Shown: positions 15,267-37,171 of the stretch, in pieces | Layout of the letters: every line of letters starts with the position of its first letter | How positions within the stretch are numbered: position 1 is the stretch's first letter | Virus record (IMG/VR): IMGVR_UViG_3300046103_001182 | Length of the DNA: 37,171 nucleotides | From: a virus | Strand: one strand, 5' to 3' | Notes under the pieces: generated by a model | What the model was told of the DNA's origin: nothing | The model's input: only the letters and a program-made list of their open reading frames with translations | The model's database searches: none | Made by a program: the position numbers and the translations under genes

Positions 15267-16991
15267 CTAGTGTACGTCATACCATGTTAAGCCGATTTTG
15301 GCGTTTCCTTTCGTTGGGCACCTAAGATTAAAGTGTTCGCCTGCTGCTTCAAAGGCTTCCTCCATAATCTCAGCTAACCTTGGTGCTTGGTCCTCCCTAA
15401 CCTCTACGTTAATCTCATCGTGGACTACGGACACTTGATTAAAATCAAGACCCTCCTCCTTCGCTTTTGCATAGTACATCACCATGACCTGCTTCATGTA
15501 AACGGCCCCTGCTCCCTGTAGAAGCGTGTTGAGTGCAGCGTGTGCGCTCCTGACTTCTATCTGTCTACCGTCTAATCCTTTGAGGTAACCCTTGGCCGCT
15601 GCCTTTTCCACCCTGTCCCTGAGTGACTTGAGAGCTGGGAGGGAGTCCATGAACCGCTTTTTAGCAGCCGTTCCTGATGCTCTACCTTGTCCAAGAATGC
15701 TACCGATTTTAGCATCCCCCGCTCCGTACAGGAAAGCATAGATAAAAGTCTTCGCCTTATCGCGCGTAGCAATACCAGCCGCACGTTGATTAACTGAATG
15801 TACATCCGTAGCATCGTCCTTACTCCCTTGGTCTACTGTTTTAATGTATGTTTTGTCAGCCATGTAATGAGCTAACATTCTAAGCTCTAAAGCATCTGCG
15901 TCACACCCTACCAGCTTGTAACCCTTAGGCACCGTCCAGCACTGCCGCATCTCTGTACCAAAGGGTTTTCCTGGAGCAGTCACCTGTCCTAGGTTAGGCT
16001 TGCTGTGTGTCATGCGACCCGTTACAGCTCCAGAGGGGTCTACGTGACCGTGTACCCTGTCATTGGAGTCGGCAGCTTCTATCCATGACGCCGCCATAGC
16101 AATGCGCTTCTCTAGCATAAGGTACTCTGCTATCATCTGAGCCTCTGGTATACTAGAGCCCTCCAAAGCACCCTCGTCTACCACAGGCTGTCCTGTAGGC
16201 GTCTTAGACTTAGGCTCCCACCCGAAACGCACAAGGTACTCTCCGATCTGTTTCCTAGAACCTAGATTAAAGTGGGGGAACCTAATTTTAGTAAAACTCC
16301 CGCCAATATCGTCAATACTAAAACCACCAAGACCCACTCTACTAACCGTCCCGTCACACTTAACCTTCGGTACAACCAGCTTCTCCGCGCTCGCCATTGG
16401 TATAAACCTCTCATGTACAGCGTTCTCAACGTCATCTTTTCTCTCCCTTAACTTAGCTACAAGATCAAAACATTTCTTCATATCAAGCGTCCAGCCATGC
16501 TTAATTTGTTCGTCTATCACAGCACTAACCTGCTTCTCTAACAGCGCAGAGGGTTGCTTAAGCTCCTCCTTAACGACAGCGATAAGACGTTCCGTTACTT
16601 CGAGGTCTTGGACGCAGTAGGTTCCCATTTCTGGGGTAAACTTTGTCCAATCACTGTAGACCCCTTTTGGAAAACCAAGGGTTTGCCCCCATACCTTGAG
16701 TGAGTGCCCTCCAATGCGCCTAGGATTCGCTTCCCGTGACATAACAACGCTATCCCTAAGATGAACGTCACTAAAATCAATAGCCCACAAATCCCTAAGA
16801 ATAGGGTAGTCATATCTAAATCCGTTATGTGCATAAACGTGCGCTCCTTTGTGTTTATCTATGTAAGCCTGAAGGTCAGGCCCTGTCATCATAAGCTCAC
16901 CTTCTGGTTCACCAATGACCTTAACACCGCAACACCATATAGTGTCTGGCTTAAGCCCGTTCGTTTCTATGTCTAAAATTAACTCAAGCAC
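15267..16991 (-). CDS. Family A DNA polymerase with 3'-5' exonuclease domain (T7 gp5-like)
   Basis: Exo motifs DIETNGL, HNGFRYDYPIL, YCVQDLEV. Pol motif A DADALELRMLAH, motif B RDKAKTFIYAFLYGAG, motif C VHDEI. The start is GTG at 16991, overlapping the HNH stop. Confidence 0.95.
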   Translation of the reverse strand: MLELILDIETNGLKPDTIWCCGVKVIGEPEGELMMTGPDLQAYIDKHKGAHVYAHNGFRYDYPILRDLWAIDFSDVHLRDSVVMSREANPRRIGGHSLKVWGQTLGFPKGVYSDWTKFTPEMGTYCVQDLEVTERLIAVVKEELKQPSALLEKQVSAVIDEQIKHGWTLDMKKCFDLVAKLRERKDDVENAVHERFIPMASAEKLVVPKVKCDGTVSRVGLGGFSIDDIGGSFTKIRFPHFNLGSRKQIGEYLVRFGWEPKSKTPTGQPVVDEGALEGSSIPEAQMIAEYLMLEKRIAMAASWIEAADSNDRVHGHVDPSGAVTGRMTHSKPNLGQVTAPGKPFGTEMRQCWTVPKGYKLVGCDADALELRMLAHYMADKTYIKTVDQGSKDDATDVHSVNQRAAGIATRDKAKTFIYAFLYGAGDAKIGSILGQGRASGTAAKKRFMDSLPALKSLRDRVEKAAAKGYLKGLDGRQIEVRSAHAALNTLLQGAGAVYMKQVMVMYYAKAKEEGLDFNQVSVVHDEINVEVREDQAPRLAEIMEEAFEAAGEHFNLRCPTKGNAKIGLTWYDVH

Positions 16992-17352
16992 TATGGCACC
17001 TCGGGTGTGTTTTTACTGCGTGACAATTGGAGCAAAGTACCTGACACTTTGCCATTTCTTTTTCTAGGGTTGACCACTTAGCCCCAAGCCTTATCAGCGC
17101 AGAAACACAGTTTAACTTATTAGCTGGGTCAACGTGGTCATAATGTAGCGCGTGAGAGTGCGCGTTATACCCACAATGAGCGCACCCCGCCTCTAGCTTC
17201 ATAAGCCCTACCTTCTTATAAAGGGCTTTCCTCCCAGCATTCGCGCATCCACGACAAAAACTCTGCTTTCCGTCTTTGTTCTTACCGTTCTTGGTGTAAG
17301 AATCTAGGGACTTCCATTCTTTACACGTACTACACCGTTTAGTATCTGTCAC
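16984..17352 (-). CDS. HNH homing-type endonuclease with N-terminal zinc finger
   Basis: CSTC...CRGC plus HYDHVDPANK...CSNCHAVKTH. The GTG start has AGAGG 6 nt upstream. Confidence 0.8.
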   Translation of the reverse strand: MTDTKRCSTCKEWKSLDSYTKNGKNKDGKQSFCRGCANAGRKALYKKVGLMKLEAGCAHCGYNAHSHALHYDHVDPANKLNCVSALIRLGAKWSTLEKEMAKCQVLCSNCHAVKTHPRCHSA

Positions 17353-17353
17353 A

Positions 17354-17596
17354 TTAAACCTCTATGGCTACGTCTGCCCACGATACAAACTCTTCTTGCA
17401 TTTCTTCTATATCATTGAGATTAGTATACCATTCTGCAAAAGCATCGTCAACTTCCTCATCTATGACAATAGAATCTAACGGTGGCTCCGTAAACACTAC
17501 GGTCTGTAATGGGTTGTTACTGTCAGGCATTAAAGCAACAATAGATGAAGCTCTAACGTACACTGGCGAACCTTTAAAACTAAACTGGCATATCAT
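17354..17596 (-). CDS. Small acidic protein, function unknown
   Basis: 80-aa ORF with TAATG coupling to the helicase stop. Confidence 0.6.
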   Translation of the reverse strand: MICQFSFKGSPVYVRASSIVALMPDSNNPLQTVVFTEPPLDSIVIDEEVDDAFAEWYTNLNDIEEMQEEFVSWADVAIEV

Positions 17597-19218
17597 TAGA
17601 ACTCTCCCTTAAAGTCGCTGTCTTCTGGCTCACTGGGCTTTGGTACTTCAACCATACGCCCTGTGTCTCTTGAGTATTTTAGGTAACACGCTGGCCCTGT
17701 TTCTCCTGTGTATCTGTTCTTCAACACACGGATTAGCGTAGTATTTCTCAACTCTTCACTCTCAGCCTGCTGGTCTCTCTCCAAGCCTATCACCATGTCG
17801 CTCAACTGCGCGATAGATTGAGAGCCACGTAGCTCACCTAAGCTTATGCGACCGCCTTCCTCATGGCTGGTGCCGCCTGAGCGTCTAAGGTGACTAATGA
17901 GAAACATGCCTATGTTAAGCTCTGCCACAAGCCGCCTGAGCCTAGTCATAACCTCGTCTATAGCCTTACGCTCGTCACCGTTTTCCTGTGCCGACACAAT
18001 TATAGAAAGGTGATCTAGGACAATGTACTTACAATCATTAGCCTTGACCATGAAGCGTATCTTAGACAACAGGGAGTCCACGGTAGGTGAGTCCCAGTTA
18101 CCATAAAGAAGGTAGCGCCCTGTGCCTAGGGTCTTATCGAAGTAGGGGCGTAGCGACTCCATGTCGGCCTCTTCCTCAAGGTGTAGGGTACGGTTGGCAG
18201 CTATGGACATAATGCCCATGCCTGTGCGCTCTACGGTCTCTTCTAAGGCCAGTACGCCTATGTTGTGTGGGGTAGCCCCGAGCAGGTAATACTCCAGCTC
18301 TCTCACAAACTGAGACTTACCCATACCAGAGCCTGATGTAATAGTGACCAGCTCCTCTCGGATACCTCTGGTCAACACGTTAAGACCCTCCCATGGATAC
18401 GGAATGCTCTTTGTTTTCCTGTACTCTACCAGAGAGCCCCAGAGGTCAGCCCCGTTAACAATACCCTCGGGCGCGTAGTCCCTAGCGTCCCACCATGCCT
18501 TAATAAAATCCCTAGAACCCGCTGACAGTAGGTACTCGTTGGGGTCTTTCTTTGACATCTTTACAATCTTAAGCTTTCCTGGGCTGAAGAGGTCTTGTAC
18601 TTCCTTTATGGCGTCCTTACCTGCCTTGTCACTGTCAAAGCACACAACGATAGTGTCGTAGCCCTCAAGGAATGCAAGCTGGGCCTTAAGCTCCTTGAGG
18701 GCACTAGAGGCCCCGTTTCTAACCGATACCACATCGTACTTTCTCTCGAACATCTGGGACACACTAAGGCAGTCCAGCTCTCCCTCTGTTATCGTAATGT
18801 ACTTTCCGTTACCCCTGCACACCTGTTGCCCAAAGAGCATGGTGTTCGCAGGGGCTCCCGCTGGGCAGTAGAAAGCCTTATCCTCCACCACCCTCGTTTT
18901 GTAGCCTATAACGTCTGCGTTACTGTCAAACCAAGGGTAGTAGTGCTTATCAATTTCCCCCTTGGCGTCAAAGGATACCTTGACCCCGTATTTGTCACAG
19001 GTAGCGCGGTCTATGCCCCTGTCCTTAATGTGACTGAGTGTTGCGTTTTGCATGTTTTGTCCTTGCTTAGGTTCTATAATTACTTTCTCGACTGTCTCTC
19101 CCGAAGACCCTGTGAAGGTCTTGCAAACAAAGCACCACCGAGTACCGTCTGTATACAGCATGTTGCCGTCTGACGAGCCACATGACTCACAGGGTCCCTT
19201 GCTTATGATCTTACCCAT
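17596..19218 (-). CDS. Bifunctional primase-helicase (T7 gp4-like)
   Basis: Zn finger CESCGS...CFVCK; TOPRIM ITEGELDCLS and DSDKAG; Walker A GSGMGKS; Walker B IVLDHLS. The start is placed at ATG 19218 (MGKIISK) behind GAGGAG rather than the track start 19239. Confidence 0.93.
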   Translation of the reverse strand: MGKIISKGPCESCGSSDGNMLYTDGTRWCFVCKTFTGSSGETVEKVIIEPKQGQNMQNATLSHIKDRGIDRATCDKYGVKVSFDAKGEIDKHYYPWFDSNADVIGYKTRVVEDKAFYCPAGAPANTMLFGQQVCRGNGKYITITEGELDCLSVSQMFERKYDVVSVRNGASSALKELKAQLAFLEGYDTIVVCFDSDKAGKDAIKEVQDLFSPGKLKIVKMSKKDPNEYLLSAGSRDFIKAWWDARDYAPEGIVNGADLWGSLVEYRKTKSIPYPWEGLNVLTRGIREELVTITSGSGMGKSQFVRELEYYLLGATPHNIGVLALEETVERTGMGIMSIAANRTLHLEEEADMESLRPYFDKTLGTGRYLLYGNWDSPTVDSLLSKIRFMVKANDCKYIVLDHLSIIVSAQENGDERKAIDEVMTRLRRLVAELNIGMFLISHLRRSGGTSHEEGGRISLGELRGSQSIAQLSDMVIGLERDQQAESEELRNTTLIRVLKNRYTGETGPACYLKYSRDTGRMVEVPKPSEPEDSDFKGEF

Positions 19219-19261
19219 GGTTACTCCTCTTGGAAACATAGGGGCCCTGAGGCCCCTGTTA

Positions 19262-19636
19262 CTAGAACTCGTCAGGTACCTCGGTGACAGACTCTGCCTC
19301 CTGTACCACCCTGATCTTGCCTAGGTAGGTGCTGGGGCCCCATGTGGGATGCTCTGGCCCCATTGTGAACACCACTCGAACGTCAGAGCCTCGGGGAATC
19401 TCACCTAGATACGGGCTATCGTCTAGGTTTAGTGCCTCCACCGCGTACTTGGATTTAAACTTACGCTGGAAGGAACCCTCGTATTCCTTTAGCCTGACGC
19501 CTTTTTGCTGCAAAATCTCAGCGTCACCATCGTCTAAGGTTACTGTCAGGGAGTAATACCCCGTGTCCTGTCCATTGTACTCATCTGTTTTTGACACAGA
19601 AGAAAATGCTACCTTACCTGTTACCATTGAAGTCAT
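19262..19636 (-). CDS. Single-stranded DNA-binding protein (T7 gp2.5-like)
   Basis: The call rests on its position next to the helicase, its 124-aa size and the acidic C-terminal tail ending EVPDEF. AGGAGCAG SD upstream. Confidence 0.6.
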   Translation of the reverse strand: MTSMVTGKVAFSSVSKTDEYNGQDTGYYSLTVTLDDGDAEILQQKGVRLKEYEGSFQRKFKSKYAVEALNLDDSPYLGEIPRGSDVRVVFTMGPEHPTWGPSTYLGKIRVVQEAESVTEVPDEF

Positions 19637-19675
19637 AATTTACTGCTCCTATACATTATAAAGGGTACTGAGTTT

Positions 19676-19704
19676 AGTATAACACGCTTACGCGCAACTG
19701 TACA
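19676..19704 (-). promoter_or_regulatory. Putative sigma70 promoter for the SSB/replication block
   Basis: The minus strand reads TGTACA-17-TATACT with an extended -10 (TGTTATACTAAAC) shared with two other promoters. The -35 is weak. Confidence 0.45.
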
Positions 19705-19705
19705 A

Positions 19706-19912
19706 TTATATGGTACCTCCGTACTGGTTGTTGTCGTTATTCCTATCTATGGGTTCATACTGAGACATTACACGATCACCACAGCGCATAACGTATTTGT
19801 CTCCCCCTAGGGCATAATCTACTCCCTTGTCCCATGCGCTCAGAGCCTCGCTCCTGTTATCATAGGTGCCCCACAATTTCCCGTTTCTTTCTATCGTATA
19901 CTCTTCACTCAT
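19706..19912 (-). CDS. Hypothetical protein
   Basis: 68-aa ORF with an 8-nt overlap with the upstream gene. Confidence 0.55.
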   Translation of the reverse strand: MSEEYTIERNGKLWGTYDNRSEALSAWDKGVDYALGGDKYVMRCGDRVMSQYEPIDRNNDNNQYGGTI

Positions 19913-20207
19913 CTTTCTTCTCCTTAACTTTAGGTATCATGCCTTTTGACCACAGGGCCCAGTGGTGCGCCCTTACAACACCATAACAAGCCTCTACGAA
20001 CTCGTCAACACTACGCACATGCCCTACGGCATCCATCGGTATGTTAACGTCCATCTGTTCTTCAATCCCGGCCAGGATTTCTAGCTTACCCAGAGAGTCT
20101 ATGTCCTCCCAGCTTTCGTAGCAGCCGTCATACATATCCTCCATTACTGCCCTCCGTATGTCTGCCATGCAGTCCCACGATGGGTCTCTCTCGTCTGCTT
20201 CAAACAT
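19905..20207 (-). CDS. Acyl/peptidyl carrier protein-like (phosphopantetheine-attachment DSL motif)
   Basis: DSLGKLEILAGIEEQMDVNIPMDAVGHVRSVDEFVEA aligns without gaps to E. coli ACP [38 protein letters not shown]. Confidence 0.6.
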   Translation of the reverse strand: MFEADERDPSWDCMADIRRAVMEDMYDGCYESWEDIDSLGKLEILAGIEEQMDVNIPMDAVGHVRSVDEFVEACYGVVRAHHWALWSKGMIPKVKEKKDE

Positions 20208-20412
20208 AGCCTAAGTCCCTCGCTGTCTTTTTCCAATAGTCACACGCGCTGTCTACTATGTCGAACTCGCGTTTAGTCTCCGCTGCGTCCTCTAGCTGCT
20301 GCGTCACCTTATTAGCTACGTATCCCTCTTTAAACAACAGGTTCGCCATGTGGCACCTATCACCCTCTGACAGCCCCTCGAACATATCTCTTACAGTGTT
20401 TACGTTATCCAT
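20200..20412 (-). CDS. Hypothetical protein
   Basis: 70-aa ORF, coupled at both ends. Confidence 0.55.
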   Translation of the reverse strand: MDNVNTVRDMFEGLSEGDRCHMANLLFKEGYVANKVTQQLEDAAETKREFDIVDSACDYWKKTARDLGYV

Positions 20413-20573
20413 TATCGCTCCTCCTCTGGTTCATCTAAAGGGTCGTCTACATAGTACTCTGGTGGGCGGTCAGGTAACCGTGTTCCTGCTACTATCAGGC
20501 AGGTAATGACTACCATTAAACAACCCGCAACGGACATTATAAAAATTAACAGCGCCAAAAAGAAATCTAACAT
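20412..20573 (-). CDS. 53-aa membrane micro-protein (MLDFFLALLIFIMSVAGCLMVVITCLIVAGTRLPDRPPEYYVDDPLDEPEEER)
   Basis: Hand translation. One N-terminal TM helix plus an acidic tail. The start overlaps the upstream stop (TGATG) and the stop overlaps the downstream start (TAATG). Confidence 0.6.
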   Translation of the reverse strand: MLDFFLALLIFIMSVAGCLMVVITCLIVAGTRLPDRPPEYYVDDPLDEPEEER

Positions 20574-20962
20574 CAGTCCATCCTCGTTATAAAAGTATCG
20601 TCAGTATCTCTAACAACCGTTATGGCGTGAGAGTATATCAGTAATTCTACTCCACTGTCAGGGTACTTGCAAGACATATAGGGAAACAGATCAGGGTCTG
20701 CTGGTCCGTCCTCTGGGTCGTCAGGTTCATTAGAGACCATTACACCGTCTTCCTTAACGGTACCCCAGAAACCCTCTTTACCGTCCCCGAAGCCAAATCC
20801 ATAAATATCCATCATGGACTTAAAAATACCATCGGCTGGGGCTTCCTCTGTGAGGCGCTCCATAGACTCTGCATAAAACAGAGGTATTACGCCACACGCC
20901 TCTACTAGCCGCTGCTTCGGTACATCTTTAAACTTATTTAACGGGTCTACAGTTACCATCAT
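20573..20962 (-). CDS. Acidic hypothetical protein
   Basis: 129-aa ORF with AAGGAG-type SD (AAAGGAGTAGAGGAAATG). Confidence 0.65.
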   Translation of the reverse strand: MMVTVDPLNKFKDVPKQRLVEACGVIPLFYAESMERLTEEAPADGIFKSMMDIYGFGFGDGKEGFWGTVKEDGVMVSNEPDDPEDGPADPDLFPYMSCKYPDSGVELLIYSHAITVVRDTDDTFITRMD

Positions 20963-20980
20963 TTCCTCTACTCCTTTGGT

Positions 20981-21045
20981 TACCTTAGGAGCCTAAGGCT
21001 ATTTAGTTATTCATTAAACTAAAACTAAATAACTCTGGCTCCTTA
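20981..21045 (-). promoter_or_regulatory. Long imperfect inverted repeat forming a 5'-leader stem-loop
   Basis: The arms CCTTAGGAGCC...TATTTAGTT and AACTAAATA...GGCTCCTTAGG surround a loop of about 15 nt. The element lies between the predicted promoter and the SD of 20962. Confidence 0.6.
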
Positions 21046-21050
21046 GGTTT

Positions 21051-21079
21051 AGTATAACACAAATATACATCTGTGCCTA
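21051..21079 (-). promoter_or_regulatory. Putative sigma70 promoter (TAGGCA-17-TATACT, extended -10)
   Basis: The minus strand reads TAGGCA...TGTGTTATACTAAAC. The palindrome GGTAATATTACC (21089-21100) lies just upstream. Confidence 0.5.
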
Positions 21080-21101
21080 TTTTGTTTAGGTAATATTACC
21101 A

Positions 21102-21374
21102 CTAATCGCCCAGATCATCCAGAGGGCTAGTGATACCCTCACGGGCGCTTGTCTGGTCTCCCCTGTGCCTAGGGCTAGACATCATCACCTCGTCCATGGC
21201 TTCCATGTGCGAATAGCCCTCCTCTATTAGCTCTAGGTAACGCCCTTCCTTTTTAGCGTACATACGCACTACGCGCTCACTAGGATTCTCAAATCCTGCG
21301 CCTACGAGCCAGTGGGCCCTACTACCGCGCAGTTCTACCTCGGCCTCAAAAATCTTCTTATAGACTTCTTTCAT
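21102..21374 (-). CDS. Hypothetical protein
   Basis: 90-aa ORF with ATGA-type overlap with the upstream gene. Confidence 0.6.
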   Translation of the reverse strand: MKEVYKKIFEAEVELRGSRAHWLVGAGFENPSERVVRMYAKKEGRYLELIEEGYSHMEAMDEVMMSSPRHRGDQTSAREGITSPLDDLGD

Positions 21375-21613
21375 GTTTTTACTCCCTTTGGTGGTACATC
21401 GAAAGCTAGGTTATAAGACGCCTCTAGCGTGTCGTAGTCCATTTCTTTGTGCTTGTCTATGTACATCGCCATGATGCGGTCCTTAACGTCACCTAGCGTG
21501 TATATATCAGTGTTAAAACAGGCCATGGCTTCTTCTATCGTCCATGTGCGGGTCTTACGCTCGCTCAGGTCGTACTCCATTATGGCGCGCTTCTCTCTCA
21601 TTTCTTTACTCAT
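21371..21613 (-). CDS. Hypothetical protein
   Basis: 80-aa ORF, coupled at both ends. Confidence 0.6.
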   Translation of the reverse strand: MSKEMREKRAIMEYDLSERKTRTWTIEEAMACFNTDIYTLGDVKDRIMAMYIDKHKEMDYDTLEASYNLAFDVPPKGVKT

Positions 21614-21813
21614 CTTAATCCCCTTATAAGTTTCTCGTGTTGAACGGCTCTCTCGTGCAGCTCCTCAGCTATAAGCATGTGGTTTTCTGCGGAGGTTATA
21701 GTCCAACTGAGTAATCTCCGCGTTCCTCCCGCGCTTACAACTTTATTTATGTCATTTTGGAGAGCCTGAAGCAGCTCGTCTGCTGACATTTTTTGTAATT
21801 CCTTTTTACTCAT
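21610..21813 (-). CDS. Hypothetical protein
   Basis: 67-aa ORF, coupled at both ends. Confidence 0.6.
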   Translation of the reverse strand: MSKKELQKMSADELLQALQNDINKVVSAGGTRRLLSWTITSAENHMLIAEELHERAVQHEKLIRGLR

Positions 21814-21967
21814 CTATCTGTACTCCTTTGTGCTTACGATGCCCACGCTTGGACTTCGCTTTACGGTCCTCGAAAGTATGCGCTAGGTTAAACGTCCTAG
21901 CATGTTTAGCTACAGGGTTTCCCCTAGCGGCTATCTGTTTATCCTGTACTACTCGCTTGTGTCCCAT
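21806..21967 (-). CDS. 53-aa highly basic micro-protein, ArfA-like tail (MGHKRVVQDKQIAARGNPVAKHARTFNLAHTFEDRKAKSKRGHRKHKGVQIDE)
   Basis: Hand translation, checked codon by codon. It fills the 21972-21814 gap and its stop overlaps the next ATG by 8 nt. The pattern NPVA....F......DRKAKSKRGHRKHK recalls ArfA (..[21 protein letters not shown]). Confidence 0.55.
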   Translation of the reverse strand: MGHKRVVQDKQIAARGNPVAKHARTFNLAHTFEDRKAKSKRGHRKHKGVQIDE

Positions 21968-21972
21968 CGTCC

Positions 21973-22752
21973 CTACGCCCTCATGCGGTCATCATAAAAC
22001 AAGCGCATTGTATCATGCGCATCATCGTCTTTGCTGTGCAATAGTGGTGAATTTGCCAGATAAATAGCCCTTGACATTCCTCTGGGCGTCAGGCTGCGAA
22101 TGTACTTTGTACGCGCTGACTTCCCGCCTAGCATCTTGTGGCATGGGTTGACCTCACCCTCTGGCCGCTTGTCAATCAGGTAGTGGTGCGGCATCTCGGC
22201 ACCGTTAGAACACCATAGCCCTGTTTTTTTGTTATATATGTCCCGTGGCGGGTAATACTCTGGAAACTCTGGGTGTACGTCATCCACAGGTAACAAACGC
22301 TGGAATTCGTAGGGCTGCACGTACCCTGTGGGCCTCTTCCACGTTGTGGCTAGTACACTCACGGGATTTTCTACGATAGACGGACACGGCCAGCACTCTA
22401 CAAGCCGCGCTAGGGCTACCGCTTCCGTTTGAAAATCAGGGTTGTCTCTACGCTTACGCGCAAAATGAGCCGCACCCGAGACGGCCAAATCTGTGCATGG
22501 CGCGAATGACAGTATAAACGAGGGCGCAGGTAGCATTAAACCCGCTAGGGCGTTGTCTACGCGCTTATCTGCGTCACGCCCTACTAGGTCTACGTCTAGC
22601 CGACTATGACGCGGGTGCGTCCATTGTGGGCGCTCTGTGTCGCTGTGGTCTGTGTCGCTATGGTCTACACTAACACAGTGGTATCTACCATCGTCTAGCC
22701 ACGGTTGTACTGCGTAGCGTGAGCTATTAAACAGAAATAATATTGTTTTCAT
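21973..22752 (-). CDS. C5-cytosine-methyltransferase-fold protein with divergent motif I
   Basis: Motif IV-like SFAPCTDLAVSGA is followed 42 aa later by motif VI-like SIVENPVSVL, then a C-terminal RSLTPRGMSRAIYLAN. The N-terminal beta-strand TILFLFNSSRY lacks FxGxG. The start is placed at MKT (22752), coupled ATGA to the micro-ORF. Confidence 0.55.
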   Translation of the reverse strand: MKTILFLFNSSRYAVQPWLDDGRYHCVSVDHSDTDHSDTERPQWTHPRHSRLDVDLVGRDADKRVDNALAGLMLPAPSFILSFAPCTDLAVSGAAHFARKRRDNPDFQTEAVALARLVECWPCPSIVENPVSVLATTWKRPTGYVQPYEFQRLLPVDDVHPEFPEYYPPRDIYNKKTGLWCSNGAEMPHHYLIDKRPEGEVNPCHKMLGGKSARTKYIRSLTPRGMSRAIYLANSPLLHSKDDDAHDTMRLFYDDRMRA

Positions 22753-22841
22753 AGTAAACCTAATCCCCATCCGAATATTAAACCCATAGCCACACCCGTA
22801 CAGCATAGCAGTAAAAAGCCAGTTATATCATTATTACTCAT
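22749..22841 (-). CDS. 30-aa hydrophobic micro-peptide (MSNNDITGFLLLCCTGVAMGLIFGWGLGLL)
   Basis: Hand translation, checked base by base. The ATG lies inside the last codons of 22834..23139 and its TGA overlaps the ATG at 22752. Confidence 0.5.
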   Translation of the reverse strand: MSNNDITGFLLLCCTGVAMGLIFGWGLGLL

Positions 22842-23139
22842 TTCTCAATCCTCTTTTAATCACTATCCTAGTATCGGAAATGCCCACAAGGGCGCGAGTA
22901 CACTCACCCGCCCACACTGTTACCTTTTGGCTGGTGGTATCTATTAGGCCGCCATGTTTACCCGCTGTCACCTTGCGTAGTTTGCCAGTGGTGGCTTTTG
23001 CGTACACTATCCATTCACCCTCTATGGTAGTAGTAAACGTGTCACCACCCTGCCACCCGTGTGACGCTAGGCCTTGAACCCATACCCTATGGCCCTTTTT
23101 AGTGGGCGTGATTGTAGTGTTAAATATTTTCTGTTTCAT
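22834..23139 (-). CDS. Hypothetical small beta-rich protein
   Basis: 101-aa ORF with ATGA overlap with the upstream gene. Confidence 0.6.
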   Translation of the reverse strand: MKQKIFNTTITPTKKGHRVWVQGLASHGWQGGDTFTTTIEGEWIVYAKATTGKLRKVTAGKHGGLIDTTSQKVTVWAGECTRALVGISDTRIVIKRGLRNE

Positions 23140-23522
23140 ACTGATACCCTCACTTGTCTGTTTAGCAGTAGTGCTTTACGTGTGCCAGTGTACGCGCTCT
23201 CGTCTGACACGTATACAAAAGATTCATACTTATACGGATTGTAAGTTATCGGTACCATGTGTTCTGTTATAGGCGTATTAAACGGCACCCAATACCCCAC
23301 TAGACCCGCATGGACATTCTTTTTACGCTCACGTAGTACGCGCTCACGACCCGCTTGTGATACTCTAGGGGATACGTCCTGTAATACCACGCCACGCTTG
23401 TGTGCAATCACACGGCCCTTGTGTGGGCCGTCTAGCGCCCTGACAGACCATAGCTTACGATGTAAGTTAAAATACACGTACACGCGCTGTCCTGTAGGTT
23501 TCCCATCTCTTTTGTTTTTCAT
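23136..23522 (-). CDS. Conserved-looking basic phage protein, function unknown
   Basis: 128-aa ORF. The pattern VYFNLHRKLWSV...VHAGLVG looks familiar from other phages, but I cannot name a family. Confidence 0.6.
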   Translation of the reverse strand: MKNKRDGKPTGQRVYVYFNLHRKLWSVRALDGPHKGRVIAHKRGVVLQDVSPRVSQAGRERVLRERKKNVHAGLVGYWVPFNTPITEHMVPITYNPYKYESFVYVSDESAYTGTRKALLLNRQVRVSV

Positions 23523-23525
23523 ATC

Positions 23526-24380
23526 CTAACCCCTTGCGATTATGTTATTGAATTCCGCTACGTTTTGAGCCGTTACAAAAAAAGACTGATAACCCTCACC
23601 CGCGCGTTGCGTCTTATTACTACCTTTACGCTTTAAGATTCCTATGGTACCGCTAGAATCCAACGGGCGTAAGTCTGTAGTGTCAAACGATACCGCGTCA
23701 CTAGGTACCTGTATATTATCGGACTGTAATCCCTTCGTATTGTACGCTACCGCTATTTTGTAACGCGATTGTACTGCTTTTTTTAGTGCTGCTTTGCTTT
23801 GCACACTGTGCATACTAGCAGAAAATGTTAGGTCGTAATTGTCCAGTGTATTTTTACGGACACGCGACAATATTTTTGTATAGTCGTAAAATTGTGATTG
23901 TGGGCGCTCTGCTATAGTGTCAGAAAAGTCTAGGTCGCTAGTGCCGTTTAAACGAAACAGAGCGGGTATACCAGTTTTAACGGCTTTGCGCTCTGCTTTG
24001 TCTATATCTGCTTTTAACTGTAATACAAAGTAATCGTAGCGCATTAAATACCAGATGGTACGCTTTGTGGCGGCCCTGTCCGCGTTACCCTCTGCTATAC
24101 CTAATTGACCACTAGACTTTAAACAGGGCGCTTTACATCCACCTGCCACTGCCATAGCGCAAATGGTATCTAAAGCTACCTTGTCCGCTGGCTGCATATA
24201 AACAATATAGGTATCACGTTTGTCTGGTACACCCTCCGCGTTACCCTTCTCTACTTTTGTACTGGTACCTAAAATACGCATAGGTGTATTAAGATACTCT
24301 ATATTACTGTACGCCCACAATTTAGCCTTATTAGTGAGTAGCTTTGTATACATTATGTCTTTGCGAGTAATAGATAACAT
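23526..24380 (-). CDS. Cys-triad protein, possibly GP88-family-like, function unknown
   Basis: CAMAVAGGCKAPC (C-x7-C-x3-C) is followed by a basic helical segment. The start is placed at ATG 24380 (MLSITRK, AGGGA upstream) because a promoter lies inside the longer track ORF. Confidence 0.6.
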   Translation of the reverse strand: MLSITRKDIMYTKLLTNKAKLWAYSNIEYLNTPMRILGTSTKVEKGNAEGVPDKRDTYIVYMQPADKVALDTICAMAVAGGCKAPCLKSSGQLGIAEGNADRAATKRTIWYLMRYDYFVLQLKADIDKAERKAVKTGIPALFRLNGTSDLDFSDTIAERPQSQFYDYTKILSRVRKNTLDNYDLTFSASMHSVQSKAALKKAVQSRYKIAVAYNTKGLQSDNIQVPSDAVSFDTTDLRPLDSSGTIGILKRKGSNKTQRAGEGYQSFFVTAQNVAEFNNIIARG

Positions 24381-24417
24381 ACTGTTTAATCCCTGTGGTT
24401 TTTGTGTGTGTCCTGTA

Positions 24418-24445
24418 ATTATAGGGCCATATTGTATTATGTCTA
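24418..24445 (-). promoter_or_regulatory. Leftward sigma70 promoter PL (TAGACA-16-TATAAT)
   Basis: On the minus strand the -35 is TAGACA (24445-24440) and the -10 is TATAAT (24423-24418), about 40 nt upstream of ATG 24380. Confidence 0.65.
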
Positions 24446-24550
24446 TGGTAATATTAACATTTAAATAGCTGTACTTTATACGGCACCTTATGCTAGGGAA
24501 TATATACAACCTTCATTCTATTATGCGTGCGCGTGCGAATAGCACAATAC

Positions 24551-24773
24551 CCTATGGTTGTCTATAGTAAATAGTACCTTGCAATGATAGGTGTACCAGT
24601 GTAGGGCATAGGGTGCCATAGGCACCCGCCTAGGCCCACACTCCCCATGGTTGTCAATAGTATTGTGGGGTAATAATAGTGTGGACAGTCCCCTATGGTT
24701 TATGCTAGGGCCCCAGTGGATACCATAGGGGAACCCAGTGAGTACCATAAGGGAACCCAGTGAGTACCATAGG
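24551..24773. repeat. Array of CCATAGG / CCTATGG heptamer sites, including a 17/19 direct repeat
   Basis: Sites at 24551, 24607, 24616, 24644 (variant), 24692, 24723, 24745 (variant) and 24767. CCTATGGTTGTCTATAGTA (24551-24569) matches CCCATGGTTGTCAATAGTA (24644-24662) at 17 of 19 positions. Confidence 0.85.
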
Positions 24774-24780
24774 GGAACGG
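24721..24780. repeat. 22-bp iterons TACCATAGGGGAACCCAGTGAG x2.7
   Basis: Units begin at 24721, 24743 (1 mismatch) and 24765 (partial), preceded by the related CCCCAGTGGA. Confidence 0.9.
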
Positions 24781-24788
24781 TCCTGGAG

Positions 24789-24819
24789 TTATCCACAGGT
24801 TATCCACAGGTTATCCACA
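24789..24819 (+). promoter_or_regulatory. Three perfect tandem DnaA boxes (TTATCCACA) at 11-bp spacing
   Basis: TTATCCACAGG x3: boxes at 24789-24797, 24800-24808 and 24811-24819. Confidence 0.85.
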
Positions 24820-24890
24820 GGGGTCGGGGGGGTGTCGCCAAGTTTTTTCCTGATCGTGTAGCCGCACAATTTTACTAGGGGGTAAAACTG

Positions 24891-24940
24891 GCCCCTTTGG
24901 TTTAATAGTGCCCCATTTTGGTTTAATAAGGCCCCTTTGG
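24891..24940. repeat. Direct repeats GCCCC(A)TTT(T)GGTTTAATA x2 plus a partial third
   Basis: 24891-24907 and 24910-24928, then GCCCCTTTGG at 24931-24940. Confidence 0.85.
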
Positions 24941-25060: not shown

Positions 25061-25089
25061 TTGACAGGTAACGCCTTATCTGTTATACT
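25061..25089 (+). promoter_or_regulatory. Rightward sigma70 promoter PR (TTGACA-17-TATACT, extended -10 TGT)
   Basis: TTGACA 25061-25066, 17-bp spacer, TATACT 25084-25089, preceded by TG at 25081-25082. Confidence 0.75.
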
Positions 25090-34389: not shown

Positions 34390-37171
34390 ATGGAACAAGA
34401 CTCAGGAATGCTTAAATCTCTTATTACTGGAAAAACATGGCGCAGCATGAATGATGCTGAAAAAGCAGCTCATGTCTTAGGGCGAGGAGAAAATACGGCA
34501 GGGTACAATACAGAAGCAGGGCAGGCATGGCTAGATGCAAATGTAGGTTCTTCTCAAGACCAAATTAACTTGTTTGTTGCAGCAAGAGATGCGGCAGGAG
34601 AAAGAATTAAGGGGGGAACTTTTAATCAACAGAATGACCCCGCAGCAGTTGCTTTAGCATCCCGTTTAGCACAGGCAGCCCAACCCGCATATAACAACCC
34701 ATCCGAATTTGGGGGCGTAGGCACAAGTGGAAAAGCTACTTTAGGCATAAACTACAGAAACCCTGTTGATACGGGTAAGTTTGGGAACACTATCGCCGCC
34801 CCAGAAAAAGCATTTTCTAACGGGTTACAAACAACAGGTGCATGGGATAACAGAGAAGGATGGACCTTATATAACCCGGAAACACGAAAGTTTGAGAACT
34901 ACGCAGATCAGGGGCGTGCGTCAGGGAGGAATCCCTTTACTCCTGGTAACGGAAACACAGGTTATTACCAGACAGCAGACGGTACAACAGTATTGGGCTT
35001 CCTTCCTTCTGAATCCACACAGGTTGATGACGGCACAGGAAGCGGTACTGTATCCGTATCTGCTACTTCACCTCTTACAAAACAAGAGCTGGCAATAGGA
35101 ACAAATATGTGGTCAAAAGCTCTTAGCACTCCTGAGGCTAAAGCACAAATGACACAATGGGCCAAGGCTAATCCTAATGACCCCAGAGCCCAAAAAATAC
35201 TAAACGCTTCCATGGCAAACGCCATGTGGTCAAACGCTTTAAATACTCCTGAGGGTAAGGCATCCATGGTTGCATGGGCCAAGGCTAACCCTAATAACCC
35301 CACAGCCCAAGAAATACTAGTTGGGTCAGCACCTGCATTATTTACAGGCACTTACTCTGACGCTACTGATATTATCAGAGAGTCTTCTAATATATTCCAC
35401 TCCGATAACAGGGGCAACGACCGCAGCGTTGAGCTTGACGGAGTTCTTTCAACCGAGTCTTTTCAGACGGCCTATGTCAATGGCCTCAGGACTGAGCCTA
35501 ACACTAACCCACAAGAATTTTTTAATAGTGTACACACGATGTTTGCCCTTGACCCTGAAGAATTCAAAAGATGGCAGTCAAACCCAGAAAACAGGGACAT
35601 GGCAGTACGTTTTCATGCTATGGCTGCGACTGATAGCTTCAGTGCCAATGGCTATAATTGGGGTGAAGAAAAATGGTCAAAGAAAAAGCACCAAGAATAC
35701 GCTGATGTTTTAGGTAACGAAATTAGAAAAGATTTAGGTTGGGGTGATGAGTACGAGCGTGACGGAAGCATGATTGCTACGAATTATAGCGGTAATGTTA
35801 GCAAAGACGTTAATAACCCACAAAGCGGTGGCGATTTTTGGAAGATAGGAACACCAGAAAAAGTTACTGACGGTGTGCGAAACTTTGTTAAGGATAACCC
35901 TGTAAAGTCAGCAGCTATTCTTGCGGCTATAGCGTTTGCTCCCTACGCCCTAGGACAAGTAGCAACGGCAGCAACGGCAGCAACGGCAACAACAGCAGCA
36001 ACAACAGCAGCAGCAGCAACGGGTTTAACAGGCGTAATGGCAGGTATTGTACCTGCGGGGTTTGCATTACCCGCTGCTGTAGGAGTCTACACGGCAGGCA
36101 CACAAATAGGAACGCAGCTTCTTAGTGGAGAAAAAATTGATTTAAAGGCAGCCTTAACAACGGGGGCTATTTCAGCCGCTACTGCGGGTCTTGTTCAATG
36201 GGGTACAACAGAGCTTGTAAATATATCAAACGGTGCATTATCCGTTGATAACGCACAGCGCGTTGTTGGCGTAACTTTAGAAACACTAAAGAACGGAGGT
36301 GACCCTGTAGCTGCTATTAGTCAGTCTTTGCTAAACGAAGGTATAAATATTGCTAGGGGAGCCGTAGGAAACTTTGTATCTGGGTTTGGAACTGAGGCCG
36401 CGAGCTTAGATTTTCCTGATGGGTTTGGGCCTGCTGCTGGTATGCCCACAATGGCACAAGAAATGGCGTCAGGAGGAGGAGGACTTCAAGCTGGCGGTTT
36501 TAACCCCTTTGGTGATATTGCAAACACCGACCCTACTAATTCACCAGTAAATTTAGATGATTTAGATATTTTTACTGATACAACTAACACAACTAACACA
36601 ACTAGCCCTACTGTTTATGATGACCCTACACAGCAGCTAATAACAGACTTGGGTAACGGAACGTCAGGCGTCCTTACATCTAGTGGTCTTTCACAACCAA
36701 GACCTACGGTGCCCATTGATTCAGCTACATCGTTAAGTGATTTTGATATTTTTAACGATACGGCGACTGGTTTAAATCAACCCCCGACAATAGAAACTAG
36801 GAATTATAATGGAACAATAGACGCTGAAACAACTAGCAATATGTCTTACGATGAGTTTGAGACTGTTTTAGACGGACTCGCAGACAACGGTTACCCCCTT
36901 ACGGACACAGACGGAGAATACTTAGCTCCAGACGAGAACTATACGCTTAATGACGGGGACCAGTATTGGACTAGAACATCCGAAGCACAGCCCGAAACCA
37001 TTTTTAATGATACAGTAAACGAAAACTTTACTGGAGGCCAAGGCACTGGAGGCCAAGGCACTGGAGGCCAAGGCACTGGAGGCCAAGGCACTGGAGGCCA
37101 AGGCACTGGAGGCCAAGGCACTGGAGGCCAAGGCACTGGAGGCCAAGGCACTGGAGGCCAAGGCACTGGAG
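34390..37171 (+). CDS. N-terminal part (927 codons, no stop in the window) of the junction-spanning giant repeat-containing virion protein
   Basis: Hand translation of frame +1 from ATG 34390 to the window end found no stop. Frame anchors were checked at 34801, 35401, 36001, 36601 and 36901. It ends in (TGGQG)n, in phase with base 1. Confidence 0.8.
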   Translation, partial: MEQDSGMLKSLITGKTWRSMNDAEKAAHVLGRGENTAGYNTEAGQAWLDANVGSSQDQINLFVAARDAAGERIKGGTFNQQNDPAAVALASRLAQAAQPAYNNPSEFGGVGTSGKATLGINYRNPVDTGKFGNTIAAPEKAFSNGLQTTGAWDNREGWTLYNPETRKFENYADQGRASGRNPFTPGNGNTGYYQTADGTTVLGFLPSESTQVDDGTGSGTVSVSATSPLTKQELAIGTNMWSKALSTPEAKAQMTQWAKANPNDPRAQKILNASMANAMWSNALNTPEGKASMVAWAKANPNNPTAQEILVGSAPALFTGTYSDATDIIRESSNIFHSDNRGNDRSVELDGVLSTESFQTAYVNGLRTEPNTNPQEFFNSVHTMFALDPEEFKRWQSNPENRDMAVRFHAMAATDSFSANGYNWGEEKWSKKKHQEYADVLGNEIRKDLGWGDEYERDGSMIATNYSGNVSKDVNNPQSGGDFWKIGTPEKVTDGVRNFVKDNPVKSAAILAAIAFAPYALGQVATAATAATATTAATTAAAATGLTGVMAGIVPAGFALPAAVGVYTAGTQIGTQLLSGEKIDLKAALTTGAISAATAGLVQWGTTELVNISNGALSVDNAQRVVGVTLETLKNGGDPVAAISQSLLNEGINIARGAVGNFVSGFGTEAASLDFPDGFGPAAGMPTMAQEMASGGGGLQAGGFNPFGDIANTDPTNSPVNLDDLDIFTDTTNTTNTTSPTVYDDPTQQLITDLGNGTSGVLTSSGLSQPRPTVPIDSATSLSDFDIFNDTATGLNQPPTIETRNYNGTIDAETTSNMSYDEFETVLDGLADNGYPLTDTDGEYLAPDENYTLNDGDQYWTRTSEAQPETIFNDTVNENFTGGQGTGGQGTGGQGTGGQGTGGQGTGGQGTGGQGTGGQGTGGQGTG
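35107..35322. repeat. Tandem duplication (117-bp period) encoding two copies of a 32-aa module
   Basis: MWSKALSTPEAKAQMTQWAKANPNDPRAQKIL versus MWSNALNTPEGKASMVAWAKANPNNPTAQEIL (22/32 identical). Confidence 0.85.
37030..37171. repeat. Perfect tandem repeat, 15-bp unit ACTGGAGGCCAAGGC x9.5, identical to bases 1-142
   Basis: Read directly. Confidence 0.98.

What the first reader, a model, noticed from the sequence alone, without database searches (positions are those of the whole stretch)
19905..20207. Acyl-carrier-protein-like gene among the early genes of a 37-kb podovirus
Residues 45-83 (DSLGKLEILAGIEEQMDVNIPMDAVGHVRSVDEFVEA) align without gaps to the core of E. coli ACP ([38 protein letters not shown]). 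The alignment includes the DSL serine that carries phosphopantetheine, the EE-x-F/M-D-x-x-IP helix II/III region and the final amphipathic helix. A helix-I-like segment (ADIRRAVMEDMY) precedes it. I recognise no PPTase, synthase or acyltransferase partner in the genome, so the protein would have to plug into host enzymes. Candidate roles include diverting fatty-acid, lipid A or polyketide flux, sequestering the host AcpS or FabD, or carrying a group for a modification reaction. As far as I know, a carrier protein is uncommon in small lytic podoviruses.
Basis: partly seen in the sequence, partly recalled or inferred. Interest (0 to 1): 0.7.

Follow-up and report, generated by a model that had tools for sequence, protein, structure and literature searches.

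The report
Phage-encoded acyl-carrier-protein homolog
A small uncultured marine phage carries a real but divergent copy of the acyl carrier protein that cells use to build fatty acids; such phage copies were already known and annotated, and what this one does in infection is still not shown.

Summary
The ORF is real: 19905-20207, minus strand, 100 aa, under purifying selection. It is a divergent homolog of phosphopantetheine-binding carrier proteins (ACP).

Alone it falls below Pfam's threshold (PF00550, 15.6 vs 20.8 bits). At family level the link is significant:
- hhalign against canonical ACPs: 96% probability, E 2.8e-9, DSL motifs aligned.
- The family profile hits Pfam-verified ACP domains at E 1e-9 among 1.84 billion proteins.
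- The AF2 model has the four-helix ACP layout, with Ser38 at the start of helix II.
- Asp37-Ser38 are invariant down to about 25% identity.

It is not an AcpP or DltC ortholog. No PPTase, synthase or acyltransferase was detected in the genome.

The family occurs only in uncultured marine podovirus-like contigs. It has its own conserved N-terminal (ERDPxWD) and C-terminal (WxLxxxxMIPK) motifs.

Phage ACP homologs are already described, with function unknown, and JGI already labels this family "acyl carrier protein". I therefore file it as a new member of a known kind.

The best inference is a stand-alone carrier loaded by the host PPTase and acting on host ACP-dependent machinery. A decoy or adaptor role is a serious rival, because related gut-phage copies lack the serine.

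The parts
19905..20207 (-). ACP-like gene, 100 aa including stop codon. The core (residues 1-82) is acidic (pI 4.1) and the C-terminal tail is basic.
   Evidence: ORF; pI and RBS; dN/dS 0.21-0.37; homologs.
19965..20123 (-). Carrier-protein (PP-binding) core, residues 29-81: end of the helix I-II loop, helix II (38-52), helix III (58-61) and helix IV (67-87 in the model).
   Evidence: hhalign against canonical ACPs covers residues 29-81, probability 96.2%, E 2.8e-9. AF2 helices. PDB profile hits are all carrier proteins.
20094..20096 (-). Codon of Ser38 in the invariant D37-S38-L39 motif, the predicted 4'-phosphopantetheine attachment site at the N-terminus of helix II.
   Evidence: Invariant in 17 family members and in 19 sequences down to about 25% identity. 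It aligns to Ser36 of E. coli AcpP. Modification was not tested.
20172..20207 (-). Family-specific N-terminal motif MFEADERD(P/E)xWD (residues 1-12), not a feature of canonical ACPs.
   Evidence: Near-invariant in A1. ERDPxWD is kept in the distant members P0017 and P0030.
19929..19961 (-). Family-specific C-terminal tail motif W83-x-L-x4-M-I-P-K93. In the 115-117-aa variants a 17-aa insertion separates it from helix IV. It is probably a short docking motif.
   Evidence: W83, L85, M90, I91 and P92 are invariant. Synonymous changes occur within the motif. The motif occurs in no other ORF of the window or of related loci.
20200..20412 (-). 70-aa helical ORF directly upstream, overlapping the ACP start by 8 nt (TATGTTTGA). 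It is adjacent to the ACP gene in all close relatives but absent in distant ones. It is a possible partner, not shown to be one.
   Evidence: Synteny. Absent in L091 and L092. Invariant SEGxRCHMxNLL[FY]KEGY. No family, PDB or fold match.
19706..19912 (-). 68-aa ORF whose start overlaps the ACP stop, with an AAGGAG RBS inside the ACP 3' end. It is the remnant C-terminal domain of a 257-262-aa protein in relatives. This slot downstream of the ACP gene is variable.
   Evidence: The slot holds a Reprolysin-like lipoprotein in L001-3 and nothing in L004 and L089.

Best explanation
The gene encodes a divergent, stand-alone (type-II-style) member of the phosphopantetheine-binding carrier-protein superfamily. 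It has an acidic four-helix ACP core plus two family-specific terminal motifs.

It lies in the leftward non-structural gene block of an uncultured marine podovirus-like phage, just upstream of the T7-like replication genes (gp2.5-like SSB, primase-helicase, PolA).

Inferred mechanism. After infection the protein is converted to the holo form on Ser38 by the host's AcpS- or Sfp-type transferase; no phage transferase was detected. It then engages host ACP-dependent enzymes through helix II/III, as an extra or competing carrier that redirects or throttles host acyl (fatty-acid or lipid) metabolism. The conserved N- and C-terminal motifs dock it to a partner not yet identified.

Shown: the gene is real and under purifying selection; it is homologous to ACPs; it has the ACP fold (predicted); the serine is invariant; no recognisable partner enzymes are present.

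Inferred: phosphopantetheinylation, dependence on host enzymes, and the pathway affected.
For: Homology:
- PF00550 is the only Pfam hit.
- All PDB sequence hits are carrier proteins; the best are ACPs (2koo and 2cnr at E ~7e-4, 7qv0 at E 8e-4, with the family profile).
- The NCBIfam ACP model NF002147 is hit by 17/17 members.
- The family profile hits Pfam-verified tandem ACP domains of PKS/PUFA-type synthases at E 1e-9 to 1e-5 in a 1.84-billion-protein library.
- Distant member P0017 passes Pfam's gathering score (21.9 bits).
- hhalign against canonical ACPs gives 96.2%, E 2.8e-9, with DSL aligned.

Fold:
- The AF2 model (pLDDT 77) has helices 9-27, 38-52, 58-61 and 67-87.
- The listed top 50 Foldseek PDB hits are almost all ACPs or carrier domains, many with probability above 0.9.
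- The top BFVD hits include annotated phage ACPs.

Serine:
- D37 and S38 are invariant across 19 sequences down to about 25% identity.
- A related phage lineage freely replaced this Ser with Pro or Phe. The residue is therefore not structurally obligatory, and its invariance here argues that it is used.

Other:
- The core is acidic, pI 4.1, like AcpP at 4.05.
- No PPTase, KS or AT was found in the window ORFs scanned.
Against: - The single sequence is below Pfam's threshold, and Foldseek E-values are weak (0.2-1).
- Helix II is less acidic than in FAS ACPs and carries an invariant Gly40-Lys41. That could weaken recognition by AcpS or FAS enzymes.
- The closest non-family relatives in IMG/VR are Ser-less copies (45% identity over helix II-IV). 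The shared surface can therefore work without a prosthetic group.
- No acyl-metabolism gene is linked to it in any relative.
- The host is unknown.
- No experiment on any phage ACP was found in the searched literature.
Confidence: 0.5

Rival explanations
1. ACP mimic or decoy. The protein uses the conserved helix II/III surface to bind and block host proteins that normally bind ACP, such as AcpS, PlsB, FabD/FabH, LpxA, SpoT or MukB. This would be a host-takeover function of an early gene, and no acyl group would be carried.
For: - The window protein is 45% identical (E 9e-9) over helix II-IV to the Ser->Pro copy of the tandem ACP-like pair in ~150-kb phages.
- That Ser-less copy is conserved in 72 of 78 loci, so ACP-fold proteins without a prosthetic group are functional in phages.
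- No partner enzyme is encoded.
- It sits among small non-structural genes of unknown function.
- From established knowledge, not tested here: excess apo-ACP is toxic to E. coli, and ACP binds SpoT and MukB.
Against: Asp37-Ser38 are invariant across the whole family and its wider clade. A pure surface mimic would not need that, as the Ser-less lineage shows.
Confidence: 0.25
2. Adaptor or subunit of the phage's own DNA replication, recombination or nucleotide machinery. It would be analogous to ACP as a structural subunit of mitochondrial complexes or as the MukB cofactor, docking through its N- and C-terminal motifs.
For: ACP-like genes sit inside replication or nucleotide-metabolism modules in four unrelated phage lineages:
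- this family, next to SSB, primase-helicase and PolA;
- L095, next to helicase and PolA;
- ~115-kb PolB/UvsX phages, near FolE/QueD genes and a PD-(D/E)XK nuclease;
- ~150-kb phages, between DnaB and a PD-(D/E)XK exonuclease.

The tail motif is tethered by a variable linker, as a docking peptide would be.
Against: - Co-location may be trivial, because non-structural genes cluster anyway.
- The ACP gene tracks the well-conserved early block (genes 80-96% identical to relatives), not the replication genes (42-47%).
- No interaction evidence exists, and complex prediction was not possible.
Confidence: 0.12
3. Carrier for an unrecognised phage-encoded enzyme, for example the conserved upstream 70-aa protein, the 129-aa protein at 20573-20962, or the GP88-family protein. 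It would serve a phage-specific modification reaction rather than host enzymes.
For: orf70 is translationally coupled and syntenic in all close relatives. The orf129 homolog lies upstream of the ACP gene in every relative, including distant L092. Many neighbours have no family assignment.
Against: - orf70 is absent next to the distant members P0017 and P0030.
- orf70 is a low-confidence helical protein with no enzyme-like or LYR-like match.
- No neighbour shows any adenylation, acyltransferase or synthase signature.
Confidence: 0.1
4. Chance resemblance: an acidic helical phage protein that merely looks like an ACP.
For: Single-sequence E-values are marginal (0.002-0.02). Foldseek E-values are above 0.1.
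Against: hhalign 96%, E 2.8e-9. Library-wide significant hits to verified ACP domains. 0/5000 shuffles reach the gapless score. Hits are carrier proteins almost exclusively.
Confidence: 0.03

Closest known systems
Type II fatty-acid-synthase ACPs (E. coli AcpP; Streptomyces coelicolor FAS ACP, PDB 2koo/2cnr)
   Same: Four-helix topology. A D-S-L serine about 36-38 residues from the N-terminus, at the start of helix II. The EE-x-[FM]-D-x-x-IP helix II/III motif. An acidic core. 2koo and 2cnr are the top PDB sequence hits.
   Different: Only about 28% identity over 40 residues. NCBIfam AcpP models score 20-23 bits against cutoffs of 70-84. Gly40-Lys41 make helix II less acidic. There is an extra conserved N-terminal motif, a longer helix IV and a basic C-terminal tail. 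It is encoded by a phage with no fab genes nearby.
Phage-encoded ACP homologs (PHROG 5934; Erythrobacter phage vB_EliS-R6L ORF32; Ralstonia phage phiRSL1 ACP; BFVD entries such as Podoviridae sp. ct1h53 and Achromobacter phage Motura)
   Same: Small stand-alone ACP-like proteins in phage genomes, with no described function. [quoted passage not shown] They give structural matches to the model.
   Different: The match to PHROG 5934 is only marginal (E 0.017). There is no tblastn match to any of 50,697 GenBank phage records. Canonical AcpP-like genes occur in only 24 of those records, among them jumbo phages of 207-231 kb. This family is restricted to ~37-40-kb uncultured marine phages and has its own terminal motifs.
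Tandem ACP-like gene pair of ~150-kb uncultured phages (e.g. L064 9598-9882 and 9869-10153)
   Same: PP-binding-like proteins (25.6 and 20.7 bits) inside a replication module. Copy 2 is 45% identical to the window protein over helix II-IV.
   Different: Copy 2 has Pro instead of the serine in 72 loci, and copy 1 has Phe in 7. These proteins lack the ERDPxWD and MIPK motifs, are 94 aa long and are duplicated.
Tandem ACP domains of PUFA/PKS-type megasynthases (P0018, P0019, P0023, P0027)
   Same: Among the most significant non-family hits of the family profile, together with small stand-alone ACP-like proteins (E 1e-9 to 3e-5). All were verified as PF00550.
   Different: They are domains embedded in KS-AT-KR-DH megasynthases. 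The phage protein is free-standing with no synthase.
D-alanyl carrier protein DltC
   Same: It shares the DS[LFM]G motif with Gly at +2, and gives weak PDB and NCBIfam hits.
   Different: It scores 13 bits against a cutoff of 68. No DltA, DltB or DltD is present. DltC hits are weaker than FAS-ACP hits.
Pseudomonas podovirus LUZ19 early protein Qst (functional analogy only)
   Same: An early protein of a small lytic podovirus that rewires host acyl/CoA-dependent metabolism by binding host enzymes (bioRxiv 10.1101/577908).
   Different: Qst is an acyltransferase-like protein, not a carrier protein, and is not homologous.

Membership tests
Phosphopantetheine-binding carrier proteins (Pfam PF00550 PP-binding superfamily) | The single sequence reaches Pfam's curated gathering score. 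| tested here: not met
   15.6 bits against a cutoff of 20.8, E 0.019. 14/17 family members hit at E<=1 (best E 0.0028); no member was shown to reach the cutoff.
Phosphopantetheine-binding carrier proteins (Pfam PF00550 PP-binding superfamily) | Statistically significant homology at the family (profile) level. | tested here: met
   hhalign probability 96.2%, E 2.8e-9 against canonical ACPs. The family profile hits Pfam-verified ACP domains at E 1e-9 to 1e-5 among 1.84e9 proteins. Distant member P0017 scores 21.9 bits, above the cutoff.
Phosphopantetheine-binding carrier proteins (Pfam PF00550 PP-binding superfamily) | Four-helix bundle with the attachment serine at the N-terminus of helix II. 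| tested here: met
   This rests on a prediction only. AF2 pLDDT 77 and pTM 0.66, with helices 9-27, 38-52, 58-61 and 67-87. The listed top 50 Foldseek PDB hits are almost all ACPs, TM (target-normalised) up to 0.68.
Phosphopantetheine-binding carrier proteins (Pfam PF00550 PP-binding superfamily) | Conserved D-S-L serine. | tested here: met
   D37 and S38 are invariant in 17 and in 19 sequences. They align to D35-S36 of AcpP.
Phosphopantetheine-binding carrier proteins (Pfam PF00550 PP-binding superfamily) | Covalent 4'-phosphopantetheine on the serine (holo form). | not testable with these tools
   This needs mass spectrometry after co-expression with AcpS or Sfp. No PPTase is encoded in the window.
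Fatty-acid-synthesis AcpP orthologs (NCBIfam TIGR00517 / NF002147 equivalogs) | Score above the equivalog cutoff. | tested here: not met
   22.6 bits against 84, and 20.1 against 70.45. It is not an AcpP ortholog.
D-alanyl carrier protein DltC (NF003464) | Score above the cutoff, and linkage to dltABD. | tested here: not met
   13.1 bits against 68. No dlt-like genes were found in the window or in relatives.
PHROG 5934 (phage acyl carrier protein) | Significant match to the PHROG profile. | tested here: inconclusive
   E 0.017, 16.3 bits, residues 36-73 only.
LYR-motif protein / ACP pair (considered for the upstream 70-aa ORF) | The partner is a three-helix LYR-family protein. | tested here: not met
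   An 'LL[FY]KEGY' motif is present, but there is no Pfam, PHROG or PDB-profile match to LYR proteins. The AF2 model has low confidence (pTM 0.35) and no fold match. The ORF is absent in distant relatives.

The most novel reading that the evidence does not exclude
The ACP fold has been recruited repeatedly by phages for a role unrelated to acyl transfer: a small acidic adaptor or decoy acting in or near the DNA replication, recombination or nucleotide module.

On this reading the family, with its own ERDPxWD and WxLxxxxMIPK docking motifs, and the Ser-less tandem copies of ~150-kb phages are two versions of one function. The conserved helix II/III surface would bind a common host target, or a replisome or nuclease partner, rather than fatty-acid enzymes.
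Probability: 0.15. Interest if true: 0.7.

Novelty: new member of a known kind. Interest (0 to 1): 0.35.

Why it matters
Phage-encoded ACP homologs are annotated again and again, but none found in the searched literature has a demonstrated function. This family is a clean test case. The phage genome is small (~37 kb), no cognate enzyme was detected in it, the serine is invariant, and two extra conserved motifs could be mutated separately.

Showing whether the protein is phosphopantetheinylated, and what it binds, would tell whether such genes are metabolic helpers, host-takeover decoys or replication accessories. The contrast with the Ser-less copies in large phages makes that question directly testable.

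As it stands the finding is a solid but unsurprising annotation. It does not reveal a new kind of system.

Tried and rejected
1. Close relatives in cultured phages: none by megablast or tblastn, and none for the outgroup ACP P0024.
2. Relatives in 185,579 species genomes, looking for a prophage or a host clue: none.
3. Upstream orf70 as an LYR-like ACP partner: no Pfam, PHROG or PDB match, a low-confidence model and no fold match. It is also absent in distant relatives. Rejected as unsupported.
5. Downstream gene as a partner: the slot is variable. It holds a 68-aa remnant, a 262-aa protein, a secreted Reprolysin-like lipoprotein, or nothing. Rejected.
6. DltC-type or AcpP-ortholog assignment: scores are far below the cutoffs.
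7. Phage-encoded PPTase, KS, AT or adenylation enzyme: none in the window ORFs scanned with PHROGs and/or Pfam.
8. Tail motif shared with other phage proteins: found only in the ACP-like protein.
9. Literature on experimentally characterised phage ACPs: only annotations were found.

Full report
**1. Observation**

The coordinates 19905-20207 delimit an ATG-to-stop ORF of 100 codons on the minus strand. The plus-strand translation is full of stops.

The protein is MFEADERDPSWDCMADIRRAVMEDMYDGCYESWEDIDSLGKLEILAGIEEQMDVNIPMDAVGHVRSVDEFVEACYGVVRAHHWALWSKGMIPKVKEKKDE. The candidate serine is Ser38.

The gapless alignment to E. coli AcpP has these properties:
- 10/37 identities and 20/37 positives.
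- BLOSUM62 score 53.
- 0 of 5000 shuffles reach that score (mean 3.9, sd 6.8, max 39).

BLASTP returns the same alignment at pairwise E 1e-4.

The gene looks expressed and selected:
- An SD-like GAGG lies upstream of the ATG.
- The start overlaps the stop of the upstream ORF (TATGTTTGA).
- The stop overlaps the start of the next ORF, whose AAGGAG RBS lies in the ACP 3' end.
- Pairwise dN/dS against relatives is 0.21-0.37, with dS 0.35-0.81.

**2. Is it an ACP?**

Single-sequence evidence is marginal but one-sided:
- PF00550 PP-binding is the only Pfam hit: E 0.019, 15.6 bits, below the 20.8-bit gathering score.
- PHROG 5934 'acyl carrier protein': E 0.017.
- 18 of the 19 weak PDB hits are carrier proteins; the best is the S. 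coelicolor FAS ACP at E 0.002.

Sixteen metagenomic homologs (53-92% identity) were found. JGI already labels two of them 'acyl carrier protein'. In their alignment D37, S38, G40 and K41 are invariant.

At family level the link becomes significant:
- The profile against PDB gives only carrier proteins; the best three (2koo, 2cnr, 7qv0) at E 7e-4 to 8e-4.
- NCBIfam ACP model NF002147 is hit by 17/17 members.
- A full HMMER scan of 1.84 billion representatives returns only 21 proteins. Three are family clusters. The rest include large proteins with 5-10 matched stretches (E 1e-9 to 3e-5).
- Pfam confirms those as tandem PP-binding domains of KS-AT-KR-DH-type synthases.
- The most distant family member, P0017, passes Pfam's gathering score at 21.9 bits.
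- hhalign of the family against a small alignment of canonical ACPs gives probability 96.2%, E 2.8e-9, with the DSL motifs in register.

The AF2 model (pLDDT 77, pTM 0.66) has helices 9-27, 38-52, 58-61 and 67-87. That is the ACP helix I, long loop, helix II, short helix III, helix IV layout, with Ser38 at the N-cap of helix II.

Foldseek E-values are weak (0.2-1), as is usual for short helical proteins. Even so, the listed top 50 PDB matches are almost all ACPs or carrier domains. The best viral matches include annotated phage ACPs.

The core (residues 1-82) has pI 4.1, against 4.05 for AcpP. The last 18 residues are basic.

I conclude with about 0.93 confidence that this is a true, divergent carrier-protein homolog. 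It is not an AcpP or DltC ortholog: NCBIfam scores are 13-23 bits against cutoffs of 68-84.

**3. What is particular to this family**

Two conserved elements are not part of canonical ACPs:
- An N-terminal motif MFEADERD(P/E)xWD.
- A C-terminal tail W83-x-L-x4-M-I-P-K93.

Both are retained in P0017. ERDPxWD is retained in P0030.

In the 115-117-aa variants a 17-residue insertion separates helix IV from the tail. This suggests a tethered short docking motif. Synonymous changes occur within the motif. It occurs in no other ORF of the window or of related loci.

The family is tiny: three clusters at 50% identity. It is confined to uncultured viral contigs:
- Only two close relatives in IMG/VR.
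- None in GenBank phages.
- None in 185,579 species genomes.
- Relatives come from Tara Oceans and other metagenome assemblies (ENA, JGI, Logan).

**4. Genome context**

The window is a complete, circularly closed or terminally redundant genome of about 37.0 kb. Bases 1-142 equal bases 37030-37171.

The plus strand carries the structural and lysis genes:
- terminase;
- SU10-type portal and adaptor;
- scaffold and major capsid protein;
- holin and endolysin.

The minus strand carries, from the divergent intergenic region near 24.8-25.2 kb:
- GP88-family and L5-gp82-family proteins;
- a methyltransferase-like protein;
- a run of small unknown ORFs;
- the ACP-like gene;
- a gp2.5-like SSB, primase-helicase, HNH endonuclease and PolA;
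- a Cas4-like exonuclease and an endonuclease I-like protein;
- a DUF3310 protein (PHROG 'nucleotide kinase') and a class II RNR.

The capsid is closest to Anabaena phage A-4L-type podoviruses, and PolA is closest to pelagiphages. Both matches are at or below 42% identity. 'Small podovirus' is therefore plausible, and 'early or middle gene' is positional inference.

No PPTase, ketosynthase, acyltransferase or adenylating enzyme was detected in the 49 window ORFs scanned with PHROGs and/or Pfam. No acyl-metabolism gene is linked to the ACP gene in any relative.

The 70-aa ORF directly upstream is syntenic and translationally coupled in all close relatives. It is missing next to the distant members and has no recognisable fold or family.

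The slot downstream of the ACP gene is variable.

The ACP gene travels with the well-conserved early block, whose genes are 80-96% identical to relatives. The replication genes are only 42-47% identical.

**5. Wider comparison**

Beyond the family, the profile reaches a clade of 57-98-aa metagenomic ACP-like proteins with the signature DSLxxxxxI..[IV]ED..D[IV].IP[LI]N. D37, S38 and E49 are invariant across all 19 aligned sequences, down to about 25% identity.

The larger contigs that could be examined are phage-like:
- L095 has a helicase-PolA module.
- L097 and L098 are ~115-kb-class phages with PolB and UvsX. There the gene lies between a FolE/QueD/radical-SAM cluster and a PD-(D/E)XK nuclease.

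Seventy-eight IMG/VR contigs, most of about 80-180 kb, carry ACP-like genes. In 75 of them there are two tandem 94-aa copies. In L064, the locus examined, they lie between a DnaB-type helicase and a PD-(D/E)XK exonuclease:
- Copy 1 keeps the serine in 68 loci and has Phe in 7.
- Copy 2 has Pro in 72 loci.

The window protein is 45% identical to the Ser-less copy 2 over helix II-IV (E 9e-9), and has no detectable BLASTP match to copy 1.

Two consequences follow:
- The serine is not structurally obligatory in phage ACP-like proteins. Its strict invariance in this family therefore argues that it is used.
- ACP-fold proteins clearly also work in phages without a prosthetic group, through a surface this protein shares.

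**6. Mechanism**

Best-supported reading (confidence 0.5): a stand-alone carrier that the host PPTase converts to the holo form on Ser38. It then engages host ACP-dependent enzymes through helix II/III and redirects or throttles acyl metabolism. Its terminal motifs dock it to an unidentified partner.

What is shown and what is inferred:
- Shown: gene reality, homology, the predicted fold, serine invariance, and the absence of recognisable partner enzymes.
- Inferred: phosphopantetheinylation, dependence on host enzymes, and the pathway affected.

Rivals:
- A non-carrying decoy of host ACP partners (0.25).
- An adaptor in the phage replication, recombination or nucleotide module (0.12). ACP-like genes recur there in four unrelated lineages, but that co-location may be trivial.
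- A carrier for an unrecognised phage enzyme (0.10).
- Chance resemblance (0.03).

**7. Comparison with what is known, and novelty**

Phage ACP homologs are an existing annotation class:
- PHROG 5934.
- BFVD entries annotated as phage ACPs.
- Erythrobacter phage R6L ORF32, whose paper says the function of phage ACPs 'remains unclear' (PMC5463345).
- Vibrio phage R16F ORF117 (PMC10152775).

Canonical AcpP-like genes are rare in GenBank phages. They occur in 24 of 50,697 records; among the named isolates are jumbo phages of 207-231 kb.

I file it as a new member of a known kind, with variant features (the terminal motifs). Interest is moderate to low (0.35). The open and testable question is what phage ACPs do. 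The Ser-containing versus Ser-less contrast is the most useful handle on it.

Noticed in passing
window 1-142 and 37030-37171; ORF spanning about 34700 -> junction -> 1353 (+): The two window ends are identical and consist of a perfect 15-nt tandem repeat (ACTGGAGGCCAAGGC x ~10). It encodes (TGGQG)10 inside an open reading frame of at least 1283 codons that crosses the junction. The frame also holds a (DGT)n run and an Ala/Thr-rich hydrophobic stretch. It is probably an internal or ejection virion protein. Assembly closure falls inside the repeat, so the copy number is uncertain.
   Followed up: partly
L007-L084 (IMG/VR contigs, mostly ~80-180 kb), e.g. L064 9598-9882 and 9869-10153: Tandem pair of 94-aa ACP-like genes; in L064 it lies within a replication module. 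Copy 2 has Pro in place of the phosphopantetheine serine in 72 of 78 loci, and copy 1 has Phe in 7. These are ACP-fold proteins that cannot be carriers.
   Followed up: partly
L097 10001-10252; L098 10001-10258; L095 5144-5377: Small ACP-like genes recur in replication or nucleotide-metabolism modules of unrelated uncultured phages. In ~115-kb PolB/UvsX phages they sit a few genes from a FolE/QueD/radical-SAM (7-deazaguanine-type) cluster and a PD-(D/E)XK nuclease.
   Followed up: no
window 19706-19912 (-) vs L085 10502-11290: The 68-aa ORF downstream of the ACP gene is the C-terminal domain of a 257-262-aa protein in close relatives. About 190 N-terminal codons are missing in this genome. In relatives L001-L003 the same slot holds a 341-aa Reprolysin-like Zn-metalloprotease with a lipoprotein signal (LAGC, HEMGH).
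   Followed up: partly
window 17596-24509 (-) vs L001/L004: The genome is a mosaic. The early-block genes (GP88-like, L5-gp82-like, MTase-like, DUF7230 53-aa) are 80-96% identical to relatives. The SSB and primase-helicase are only 41-47% identical, which implies module exchange at about the ACP/SSB boundary.
   Followed up: no
window 24712-24935: Cluster of short tandem repeats (22 nt x3, 11 nt x3, 21 nt x2) in and next to the divergent region between the leftward early genes and the rightward terminase module. The strongest sigma70-like promoter matches lie nearby at 24445-24418 (-) and 25061-25089 (+). This is a candidate regulatory or origin region.
   Followed up: no
window 35107-35202 and 35224-35319: 96-nt direct duplication at 80% identity, encoding a repeated MWS(K/N)AL..TPE.KA....WAKANPN.P peptide inside the large junction-spanning ORF.
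   Followed up: no
window 16984-17352 (-): An HNH endonuclease gene sits between primase-helicase and PolA. A 122-aa gene occupies the same place in L085/L086, but none does in L001/L004. It is probably a mobile homing-type insertion.
   Followed up: no
window 19929-19961 (-) vs L001/L089: In the 115-117-aa variants the tail reads WALCLHDMIPK instead of WALWSKGMIPK. The nucleotide strings (TGTCTACATGAC vs TGGTCTAAGGGC) look like a short compensated frameshift. The flanking W-x-L and MIPK residues are preserved.
   Followed up: no
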